Of a DNA stretch of 64,000 nucleotides, positions 17,054 to 20,600 are shown one piece after another. Within the stretch, counting starts at the first letter, position 1; every line of letters begins with the position of its first letter. A program made the position numbers and the translations under genes. The notes under the pieces are model-generated. The model was not told the origin of the DNA and searched no databases. It saw only the letters and a program-made list of their open reading frames with translations. The DNA is taken from assembly GCF_035084215.1 (NCBI RefSeq), contig NC_090365.1:4898001-4962000 (forward strand), read 5' to 3'. The stretch is from Heptranchias perlo (Eukaryota).

Positions 17054-17510
17054 GCCTGCAAACTGTATTGTACCTGATCTGGAACTCCTCGATTTGGAGA
17101 CTGGGTGGGAAAATGTTCCACTTCTCCATCATTAATATTCAACAGACAATGTATCCAAATCTAAAAAAACTCTCCATTTTATTAAATGTATTCTCTAAAT
17201 GAATTTGCATCTTCCCGTTCTCAAATCCTCTCCTGAGGAGATCGATTCATGCTGGGGATACAGTTCCAAAGTTACAGGCTGCTCTCCGATACCAACTGCC
17301 CACGAGAGCTTGGACAGTGAGTGCTGACAGTCTTTTCAACAACAGGGGTCATCACACCCAAACCCGATATCAACAGATGTCTCCACTCACACACACACAC
17401 AAAACCTTTACACGATGGGGCGCACTGGAGATTTTTGCTCTCACTAGATCAGAGGCCCCACCTTGAGATCACTTGCAGCACCCACATGGTTGTTAACATG
17501 AAACGGACCA

Positions 17511-17679
17511 ATGTAAGGAATCTTACAACACCAGGTTATAGTCCAACAATTTTATTTTAAAATCACAAGCTTTCGGAGATTATCTCCTTCGTCAGGTGAG
17601 TGAGTGAGTTGGACTATAACCTGGTGTTGTAAGATTCCTTACATTTGTCCACCCCAGTCCATCACCGGCATCTCCACAT
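17511..17679. mobile_element. Short Penelope-like element insertion with 38-bp inverted repeat, hammerhead motif and 14-bp TSD
   Basis: Perfect inverted repeat 17510-17547 / 17608-17645; TSD CATGAAA(C/T)GGACCA at 17497-17510 and 17680-17693. Confidence 0.8.
17563..17599 (-). ncRNA. Minimal type I hammerhead ribozyme motif (Penelope-associated)
   Basis: Minus strand UCAC-CUGACGA-A-GGAGAU-A-AUCUCC-GAA-AGCU-U-GUGA: stem I, core CUGANGA, stem II, GAAA, palindromic stem III. Confidence 0.75.
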
Positions 17680-20600
17680 CATGAAATGGACCAGGGATTG
17701 AACCTGGGATCTTGCTGGTCTGTAAGGCGCAGCTCCACATAGAGCCGTGCATGTGAAACTGAGTCAACGGTGGAGCTCAGAGCCCTTTCTTAATGCACAC
17801 ATTACAAGAATGTTCTTAAGCACTGTAGATAACGCAATTGGAAAATGTCACAAAATTTACCTTCTAGCTCGTCAATCAGTAGCGATTTCACAGTATTTAA
17901 ATGTACATTTTTCAAGGTCAGTACTCATATAAAAAAAGGTTTAAGAGCATTTGTTGCACTTCAGACTTCACACTTTAACCGTTAAAAGCATTTTTTTTTA
18001 AAAAAGAGAAAGAAAGCCAGTCATTTTATGCCGTGTATTTCCTGACCTAAAGCCAGACGTTTACAAGAACACTACAATCTGCAAACCTCCCTTCACCAAA
18101 AGTGATTATTGACTTTAGGTTGTGTTTACTTCCAATTAGAATTGTATGGCCTTAAAAGGAATAGGCCACCATAGGTACTGCTCCACCTTAGCAGCAGAAT
18201 AATACATTCCACCTTAGCAGCAGAATAATACTGTATATTACAGGGTATAACACTCCCGTCATTACAAAACAGGGCATCAACTGACAGTGTCAGGAAAGCC
18301 ATGGGAGACCTGCTAATATTAATAAAGGGTCTGAGCTGGCAGTATGCCAAGGATGCACAGTGGGAAGGTGGCTTGACACCTGTTGTTCTCCATATGGCAT
18401 GTTCCTGATCTCAGCGTGTACCCTGATGACAGAGCCAAGTGTAGACGAAGTGTTTGCCCACAAGAAAGGGGGAGGGGGAGGAAATCAGGAGGTTCAATGA
18501 TCCTGGTAGCTCCCAGTGAACGTCAGAAAAGGCAGCATTAAGACGAGACCACTGGAGGGGAGAAAATGACATTGAAGGTTGGGGGGGCGCGGGGAAGGTG
18601 GAATTAATTGACAAGTGCACTGCCAAGTGTGGAATTCAGCAACTCGAGGCTGAGTTAGCCGATTGCAGCGGGGGGGGGGGGGGGGGCGGGGCAATGCCAG
18701 GGCATCAATTCTGTGGGCTTGGGGGGGGCAAGGGGGCAAGTAACCATCCCCCAAAAAAACAAATAAAAAAACTTCATTATTATTTTAAATGCATGCAGCA
18801 CATATGTGCCAAAATAATTCTGACGGCTTGAGAAGAAACGCTCGTGTTTAACCTTTACTGAGAGCAGAGCACGGCCAATTTCAAGGGTAATAGAGAGTTA
18901 ACCCTTTCAATTCCTTGGCCTTTTAAAATACTTTCGCCAAAATGGACTATCCAAAACAATAGTAACACACAGTGACGCTACATAAATTCATGACCCTTTC
19001 AAAAGATTTCAATTGAAAACAAAAGCAATAGAGCCCATTTGTTTTTAGTGTGAGGGGTCTTTTAAATTTTTCTATCTGTTTTACATTTATATTGACACAA
19101 CACAAAACGCTTGGCTTTAAGACACCCATATTTAACATGAAAAATATAAAACTATTTACTTTATTGAAAGATTACACTCTACCATAATGACTGTACAACA
19201 CAATTAATTATACTGAGATTTTACTGTATATTTCAAACATTTTATATTTACTATATATATAAAAAATTAACATTCAAAAGCAACCCTGGTTATTTCAGCA
19301 GTAAGTGAAATTCTCTGGAGAATGCTAACCTTTCAGCATGTACTTAACTTGGACAAAAATCTTTCTGTATATCTTGTATAATCAATCTGCATAATCTGCC
19401 CATCTACACAACACAGAACCAATTCAGACCAGAGACCTGATTTGAAGTCCAGCAAACACCATATTTAGATACACAGTACCTGAAAGCTTAACCCAAATTA
19501 CAATCTTTAATATATGAAATGTCTTTTTAAAAAAATCAATTCTAAAAATAATTTATCAGTAATAGGCATTGGAAGACTAAATACCCTCACAATATAAAAC
19601 ATTATATATTAAAAGCCCATTTTAGATCAACAGCAATGAATATAAACACCGTAGGAAAAATGTACGATGCTAGTATATTCCATATGCATTATTAATCAGA
19701 GTTTTCTGCCTTGTTTTGCTGTGTTTTTGTTTGCATTCGGCTCGGATTCAGCCGAGGATACTAAACAATAGAGAAGAGAAACAGCATCAGCAGCCTTGCA
19801 GGGATTGCAATCTGCGTCACTGTAATAATACAAGAGACCGCGGAAAAAACAAGTAACCCCACATCCCTGGCACGGAGCATCAAATGCTACTCATTTAGAT
19901 TCTGCATTATTATTTTTTTGGTCAACGTTAAGCTCGAAGAAAACAACAATTAAAGGAGCGACCATGTTACTGTCAAACACCATCTTTTTCACGAGTCAAT
20001 TTCACTGGAACCAGCGCCCTTTAAATACCAAGAAACGCACCAGGTGTAACAATTGTATTTGTTGCAATTTCATCAATGTTGCAATGCCCACCGATTGCTA
20101 CATATAAAAACACACACAAACCATTTGAGCAAATACATTTACATGATTGCAATCCTACCAGAGTGGCTCTGCTCCTCTGTCTGTGCCGTTGTGTTGTGTT
20201 GGTTATAATAAATAAGTCATTCAGCGCCCCCAAGATGTGGCTGCTCCGTCACCGCCTGCGTCAGACCAACTCCATCTGAGCTCCAAGACTCGTTCAATTG
20301 ATCAGTGATGTGTGCAACACCCCAAGGATAGAAATTCTAGAAAACACTTTCATTCAAGGTGGTACTGGCTGCAGTGGGGACAAGTGTTCAAACTGTTAAA
20401 TTCCCCTACTCTGAGGTAATTTATGTTGATAAATTTAGCACAGAATCTCCTATTTAATAATGTGTATGAAAACCACAAACATATTTTCAGATTGTTTATG
20501 AAATAATTGGTTTCACGGTGCAGTTTTTAGCTGATTTTCCCTTGCACTCAAGAGGAAAAAATCCCTTCAAAAGCATGTTTCCAGAGTCATAAATCTATAT

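What the first reader, a model, noticed from the sequence alone, without database searches (positions are those of the whole stretch)
17497..17693. TSD-flanked Penelope-like insertion carrying an intact minimal hammerhead ribozyme inside a perfect hairpin
Seen: a 38-bp perfect inverted repeat (17510-17547 / 17608-17645), 14-bp direct repeats differing only at one CpG, and between the arms a minus-strand UCAC CUGACGA A GGAGAU A AUCUCC GAA AGCU U GUGA. Known: Penelope-like retroelements carry minimal type I hammerheads whose palindromic stem III (here AGCU) is thought to need dimerisation. Inference: this is a recent, roughly 170-bp non-autonomous insertion. It lies on the same strand as CLIP3, so if CLIP3 transcription starts further upstream the ribozyme would sit in its pre-mRNA.
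Basis: partly seen in the sequence, partly recalled or inferred. Interest (0 to 1): 0.7.

Follow-up and report, generated by a model that had tools for sequence, protein, structure and literature searches.

The report
Head-to-head Penelope stub with hammerhead
This 170-base mirror-image insert is one young, truncated copy of an abundant Penelope-like jumping gene, and its hammerhead ribozyme motif is a normal part of that element's end; the shape is already described, and the family's copies suggest it was likely made by copying one RNA from both cut DNA strands.

Summary
The insert is two 5'-truncated copies of one end (pLTR) of a Penelope-like retroelement, joined head to head: a minus-strand arm with the hammerhead and a plus-strand arm with a 34-nt tail, inside a 14-bp target duplication. 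The tail has 9,832 exact genomic copies; a full-length parent encodes RT plus GIY-YIG with a Neptune/Nematis-type linker. 70 of 100 tail-ascertained copies share the layout, but this junction occurs once: it is an insertion product, not a self-propagating non-autonomous family. Inverted pLTR, tail and minimal hammerheads are published. Family statistics favour priming from both target strands on one RNA, with run-off near a likely transcription start, not at the ribozyme cut site; hairpin self-priming remains a rival. No Rfam hammerhead hit; cleavage untested. CLIP3 is on the same strand; whether its transcript spans the insert is unproven. This scan noted the same kind of insert before on other DNA (499 findings, at least 28 genomes).

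The parts
17497..17510 (+). Left copy of the 14-bp target-site duplication; its last 6 nt match the element's antisense sequence at 5 of 6 positions
   Evidence: family TSDs are 8-16 bp, 49 of 66 are 12-14 bp
17510..17607 (-). Tail-less arm: pLTR fragment reaching 131 nt upstream of the tail end, starting 34 nt inside it; holds TCAC repeats, hammerhead and AATAAA; lacks the TATA-like box of longer copies
17563..17599 (-). Minimal type I hammerhead motif: 4-bp stem I, CUGACGA, one extra A, 5-bp stem II with 3-nt loop, GAAA, palindromic AGCU, predicted cut 17567/17566
   Evidence: sequence; 2,578 exact copies in the genome; activity not tested
17551..17556 (-). AATAAA hexamer of the pLTR, same strand as CLIP3
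   Evidence: sequence; use at this locus not tested
17607..17608 (.). Head-to-head junction of the two arms, blunt by alignment and unique in the genome
17608..17645 (+). Tail-bearing arm, part complementary to 17510-17547; reaches only 71 nt upstream of the tail end, so it has no hammerhead
17646..17679 (+). 34-nt one-sided tail; in the full-length copy L097 it is followed by the ORF's ATG
17680..17693 (+). Right copy of the TSD; its first 4 nt also match the element's continuation
17689..17752 (.). Older dispersed repeat into whose edge the element inserted (about 80-90% like other genomic copies; tRNA/SINE-like by my recall, not tested)

Best explanation
The insert is a dead, doubly truncated copy of one end of an endonuclease-bearing Penelope-like retroelement, likely written by two reverse-transcription starts, one from each nicked target strand, on the same RNA. 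Shown: identity of the parent, the two fixed outer ends about 34 nt apart, TSD, variable central junctions, same-source arms, microhomology at both outer ends, pile-up of arm ends just upstream of the hammerhead. Inferred: staggered nicks 12-14 nt apart; each 3' end pairs by 1-4 nt with the RNA, one at the tail end next to the ATG and one 32-37 nt upstream; both cDNAs run towards the RNA's 5' end; because these sites lie about 130 nt from the likely transcription start, most products are short; the two cDNA ends are joined head to head after trimming. Here the tail-less cDNA ran to the presumed RNA start and the other kept 71 nt. The template was uncut at the hammerhead, which is a passenger and predicted to be inactive as a single copy.
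For: 70 of 100 consecutive tail matches on contig C1 pass a strict inverted-layout filter. The second arm lacks 32-37 nt of tail in 57 of 69 measurable cases and carries a full tail in 0 of 69, matching the two RT start sites and two-strand nicking and extension shown in vitro for an Anolis PLE (PMC11167929). The tail-less arm is longer by more than 10 nt in 21 of 70 (and in this copy), shorter in 19, about equal in 30. Arm lengths correlate (Spearman 0.65, p 1e-9, n 70; 0.56, p 0.037 within the 14 long pairs). An arm's own partner is its strictly closest relative in 12 of 14 long copies; subfamily markers agree in 45 of 56, 34 of 43 and 26 of 33 pairs against 25, 7 and 7 by permutation. Microhomology of 2 nt or more: 38 of 66 left and 29 of 66 right junctions against 17% simulated. 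The furthest arm ends 114-135 nt from the tail end in 31 of 70 copies, a tenfold higher rate than on either side, and within 86-96 (cut site at 91) in 1 of 70. A TATA-like box lies about 25-30 nt upstream of that zone in 27 of 29 longer copies, by eye.
Against: Same-source arms, correlated lengths and near-perfect palindromic centres (30 of 70 within 10 nt; L120 940/940, L136) are equally predicted by hairpin self-priming, and later off-centre deletion could shorten either arm. Gene conversion could also homogenise arms. The in vitro paper reports initiation at sites not homologous to the cut DNA, while the junctions here show microhomology; that element is Poseidon-type, this one is not. The transcription start is inferred from motifs only. 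A few copies have arms that differ at subfamily markers (L050 at three positions, L059 at two), which fits two primings but not one RNA. The sample is limited to exact-tail copies in the first 29 Mb of one contig, L097/L098 are one element, and arm ends come from BLAST edges.
Confidence: 0.6

Rival explanations
1. Fold-back self-priming: one target-primed cDNA folds on itself at a small palindrome, is copied back to about 34 nt from its start, and is joined to the other target end (close to the self-priming reading in PMC3846280 and the endonuclease-resolution reading of the tail in PMC8557442).
For: Arms share a source; 30 of 70 have extents within 10 nt; junctions often sit at short palindromes.
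Against: In 21 of 70 copies and in this one the tail-less arm holds sequence that the tail-primed arm lacks, which needs a later deletion; a fixed stop at 32-37 nt needs its own cause; L050 has arms of two subfamilies.
Confidence: 0.25
2. Two primings on two different RNA molecules held by a protein dimer.
For: A few mixed-arm copies (L050, L059); the Anolis protein is predicted to be a dimer (PMC11167929).
Against: Own partner closest in 12 of 14 long copies and correlated lengths among long copies; two RNAs would have to come from the same source locus and stop together.
Confidence: 0.1
3. A self-propagating non-autonomous element (MITE- or retrozyme-like) whose hairpin and ribozyme are its working parts.
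For: Small size, terminal inverted repeats, TSD, many similar-sized copies; one central junction recurs in two copies (L019, L026).
Against: This junction is single-copy; L019 and L026 belong to different subfamilies; sizes run continuously to full length; no tandem array; no TATA-like box in this copy.
Confidence: 0.03
4. The ribozyme or the AATAAA of this copy affects CLIP3 pre-mRNA.
For: Same strand; the ATG-bearing exon 9429-9595 has a splice acceptor at its 5' edge, so an upstream exon exists; stems I and II are predicted to form in the loop.
Against: Single minimal hammerheads showed no cleavage in vitro and low activity as dimers (PMC4209133); the Anolis motif needed its protein (PMC11167929); the sequence downstream of AATAAA is paired in the 38-bp stem; the copy is young and one of 2,578 identical motifs.
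Confidence: 0.04

Closest known systems
EN+ Penelope-like element insertions with inverted pLTR, one-sided tail and TSD (Pen2a_Av and others, PMC3846280; general scheme in PMC8557442 Fig. 2 legend)
   Same: Head-to-head inverted 5'-truncated end, 30-40-nt tail on one side, TSD of about 8-16 bp, TATA/Inr-like motifs in the pLTR, palindromes at the junction.
   Different: Both arms are cut down to under 135 nt, so no ORF remains; the tail here ends just before the ATG, whereas in Pen2a_Av pLTR and tail include the first codons.
Poseidon element of Anolis carolinensis, PAc (PMC11167929)
   Same: Two RT start sites bounding the tail; both target strands cut and extended; hammerhead in the pLTR; uncut RNA is the main template.
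   Different: Parent here has the CX2-5CxxC linker that Penelope/Poseidon lack; junctions show microhomology with the target; ORF starts after the tail, not inside stem II.
Minimal type I hammerheads (min-HHR) of metazoan PLE pLTRs (PMC4209133; review PMC6765202)
   Same: Core, short stem I, extra nucleotide after A9, G10.1-C11.1, palindromic stem III; mostly single or opposed copies from truncated PLEs.
   Different: Stem II is 5 bp, shorter than the 7-8 bp of the Schistosoma motifs; no activity data for this variant.
L1 twin priming (recalled, not read here)
   Same: Two target 3' ends prime on one RNA and give an inversion within a TSD.
   Different: Here the second start is fixed and the two cDNAs overlap, giving an inverted repeat instead of a non-overlapping inversion.
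Non-LTR retrozymes (bioRxiv 10.64898/2026.07.22.740005)
   Same: PLE-related, non-coding, type I hammerhead.
   Different: Those are tandem arrays with two or more motifs; this is one motif in an inverted stub.

Membership tests
EN+ Penelope-like element (parent family) | Single ORF with RT and C-terminal GIY-YIG endonuclease | tested here: met
   Parent copy L097: RVT_1 41.1 bits (cut-off 29.6); GIY-YIG E 0.00087, 20 bits, below its 22.6 cut-off; one in-frame stop in 891 codons. The insert itself has no ORF.
EN+ Penelope-like element (parent family) | pLTR formed by partial tandem in front of the ORF | tested here: met
   L097 repeats the last 154 nt ahead of the ORF, period 3,039 nt
EN+ Penelope-like element (insertion structure) | Inverted 5'-truncated copy adjacent to the 5' end | tested here: met
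   This copy and 70 of 100 sampled
EN+ Penelope-like element (insertion structure) | 30-40-nt tail on one end only, and a TSD | tested here: met
   34 nt and 14 bp here; family values
Neptune/Nematis-type PLE | [quoted passage not shown] | tested here: met
   Motifs at aa 753 and 790 of L097; definition from PMC8557442
Neptune versus Nematis clade | Placement in an RT phylogeny | not tested
Penelope/Poseidon clade | Absence of the CX2-5CxxC linker | tested here: not met
   Linker present
min-HHR of PLEs | CUGANGA, GAAA and UH core; 4-5-bp stem I; extra base after A9; G10.1-C11.1; palindromic 15.2-16.2 | tested here: met
   Sequence against the description in PMC4209133
min-HHR of PLEs | Structure supported by covariation | tested here: inconclusive
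   12 variants: 95.3% of cells paired, one pair with A-U, C-G, G-C but unpaired in 4 of 12; 97 of 500 shuffles reach the score
min-HHR of PLEs | Self-cleavage as dimer or with protein | not testable with these tools
   Needs in vitro assay
Rfam hammerhead families | Covariance-model match | tested here: not met
   None up to E 10 in 17300-17900, none at gathering score in the window
Non-LTR retrozyme | Tandem repeat with two or more consecutive hammerhead units | tested here: not met
   One motif, inverted layout
Self-propagating non-autonomous family (MITE/SINE-like) | Many copies sharing one internal structure | tested here: not met
   Junction pattern has 1 match in the genome
miRNA precursor | Rfam match at gathering score | tested here: not met
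   Best 47 bits against 90; generic hairpin matches

The most novel reading that the evidence does not exclude
The family's insertions are a genomic record of how PLEs make inverted pLTRs and tails: both target nicks prime, with 1-4 nt of pairing, at two fixed sites 34 nt apart on a single uncut RNA; because those sites sit just behind the 5' end of the ordinary transcript, most events are roughly 130-nt run-off stubs joined head to head, and the hammerhead plays no part in setting their ends.
Probability: 0.5. Interest if true: 0.55.

Novelty: new member of a known kind. Interest (0 to 1): 0.3.

Why it matters
The locus itself is ordinary: one of about ten thousand young stubs, unlikely to matter for CLIP3. 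Its value is as one point in a large, young family whose ends can be counted. How PLEs form inverted pLTRs and one-sided tails is called unresolved in PMC8557442 and PMC11167929; the counts here give concrete predictions (second start site needed, one RNA per insert, ends at the transcription start, microhomology at both nicks) for the existing in vitro system.

Tried and rejected
Rfam: no hammerhead model matched; the six miRNA matches are far below gathering score. Six-frame Pfam scan by long references failed on stop codons; exons were then found from ORF lists. RNA: no holder on record as RNA; four guessed-RNA contig sets from two studies were laid on 8000-22700 only. They join exons 9429-9595 and 8236-8375. 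Their 5' remainders (15, 1, 68, 50 letters) were not listed as laid in that stretch, but the table was cut (63,379 pieces not shown), so this does not place exon 1; 22,700 onward was not examined. Depth over the insert is multi-copy and says nothing about this locus; low depth in the second organism is no empty-site evidence. Empty site in relatives: no related genomes are held. As a proxy, 14 paralogous copies of the flanking old repeat were compared with the left flank: scores exceeded all 30 shuffles in only 2 of 14; by eye two copies keep the same 14-nt spacing that one TSD copy would restore: weak. First hammerhead alignment used wrong coordinates and was discarded; in the second, the window row is offset by 2 nt. 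One folding script crashed and was rerun; the unconstrained dimer fold did not give the active hammerhead dimer, and the isolated palindrome duplex is -6.5 kcal/mol, so folding neither supports nor excludes dimer cleavage. No solved structure related to the parent protein. My first label, Poseidon-type, was rejected. Hammerhead cleavage as the cause of truncation was rejected (1 of 70). Rows dropped: 30 of 100 copies failed the strict inverted filter (some are simple truncations, several have an inverted part my rule missed, so 70 is a lower bound); of 71 (70 plus this copy) 2 lacked an anchor and 3, including this copy, lacked an 8-nt exact TSD run.

Full report
Observation. The inverted repeat, the 14-bp direct repeats with one CpG difference and the minus-strand hammerhead string are all present as described. 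The fold is far beyond chance (z -11.0). Rfam gives no hammerhead match up to E 10, only sub-threshold miRNA hairpins. The right arm continues for 34 nt that have no partner on the left.

What it is. A search with the insert gave 979 candidates, 40 scored; the 29 best other loci all have the same two outer ends, their own target duplications in most cases, and differing centres. To avoid selecting for this shape I counted a 43-nt stretch of the right end: 9,832 exact matches, 0 for the control, and took all 100 listed places. Several run into an RT and GIY-YIG reading frame. L097 is full length: pLTR, ATG directly after the tail, 891 codons with one stop, second pLTR. Its CX4CxxC linker makes it Neptune/Nematis-type by the definition in PMC8557442; an earlier scan note prompted this check. 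Read on the element's sense strand, the pLTR is TATA-like box, TCAC repeats, hammerhead, AATAAA, 38-nt segment, tail, ATG. The insert is two pieces of it pointing outwards: 131 nt without tail on the minus strand, 71 nt with tail on the plus strand. The hairpin is their overlap. The junction is single-copy and the hammerhead has 2,578 exact copies.

Family statistics. 70 of 100 copies pass a strict inverted filter; 30 do not. TSDs are 8-16 bp (66 measured); the second arm lacks 27-43 nt of tail, 32-37 in 57 of 69. Arm lengths correlate, 14 copies have both arms over 200 nt, 8 only one, 48 neither. Either arm can be longer (21, 19, 30 about equal). Arms come from the same source far more often than random pairs, with a few exceptions. 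Both outer junctions show excess microhomology. Ends pile up 114-135 nt from the tail end, about 30 nt behind a TATA-like box, and not at the ribozyme cut at 91 nt; of 7 simple non-inverted copies with an adjacent TSD, 4 end at 125-131.

Mechanism. Best reading (0.6): both nicked strands prime cDNA at two fixed sites on one uncut RNA, the cDNAs run to or towards the RNA's start and are joined. This joins the in vitro findings of PMC11167929 (two start sites, both strands extended, hammerhead dispensable) to the genomic pattern. Fold-back self-priming (0.25) explains same-source arms and palindromic centres as well, but needs later deletion for copies like this one, where the tail-less arm holds the hammerhead and the tail arm does not. 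Two RNAs (0.1) fit the rare mixed copies only. None of these steps was shown by experiment here.

Ribozyme and CLIP3. The motif meets the published min-HHR description; covariation among 12 variants is inconclusive. Published single motifs did not cleave (PMC4209133), so this lone copy is predicted to be silent. CLIP3 is confirmed on the minus strand: ankyrin-like exons in the window (weak scores), CAP-Gly exons just outside, best PDB match CLIPR-59, E 5.5e-28. Contigs from two studies join exons 9429-9595 and 8236-8375, and the first has a splice acceptor just ahead of its ATG, so a further exon lies upstream. Where is not shown; a candidate near 25,610 would put the insert in intron 1.

Novelty. 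Inverted pLTR, tail, TSD and opposed or single min-HHRs are in print. Three literature searches did not list a paper stating a two-nick, one-RNA origin for inverted pLTRs; the library lacks most subscription papers and I read no supplements, where Fig. S2 of PMC11167929 may bear on this. Earlier unchecked notes of this scan reach the same reading in other genomes; none lies near this locus. They are not independent support.

Papers seen: PMC11167929, parts 1-2 of 4 (main text and part of methods); PMC4209133, parts 1-2 of 4; PMC3846280, PMC8557442 and PMC6765202, passages found by term; bioRxiv 10.64898/2026.07.22.740005, part 1 of 5. L1 twin priming is recalled.

Verdict. Real, correctly spotted, and an ordinary member of a known kind; interest 0.3, carried by the family's use as a test of PLE integration.

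Noticed in passing
window 22808-22934 (-): U6atac snRNA gene, 135 bits, upstream of the CLIP3 coding exons on the same strand.
   Followed up: no
window 25500-26000: CpG-rich stretch with repeated GCGCATGCGC-like motifs and a possible minus-strand splice donor near 25,610; candidate CLIP3 promoter and exon 1. If right, the insert and U6atac lie in intron 1.
   Followed up: partly
L002, L011, L027, L077; L121 and L137: Independent insertions with different junctions sit at what looks like the same position of paralogous host repeats, suggesting preferred target sequences, some with 3-6 nt matching the inner start site.
   Followed up: no
L097:460-3700 (-): Near-intact full-length element, one in-frame stop; 186 exact tail-to-ATG junctions of this subfamily in the genome.
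   Followed up: partly
L050: The two arms differ at three subfamily-diagnostic positions near the tail: a likely two-template product.
   Followed up: partly
L120, L136: Long near-perfect palindromic inserts (940/940 and 481/494 nt) with a centre of a few nt inside the ORF.
   Followed up: partly
L091, L108, L111, L114, L131: 35-57 nt between the two arms that my alignment did not assign to the element; origin not traced.
   Followed up: no
window 5877-6480 and 26,040-26,500: Short-period tandem repeats.
   Followed up: no
window 45177-45665 and 50154-50519 (+): Reading frames that look like calpain exons (label recalled, not tested).
   Followed up: no
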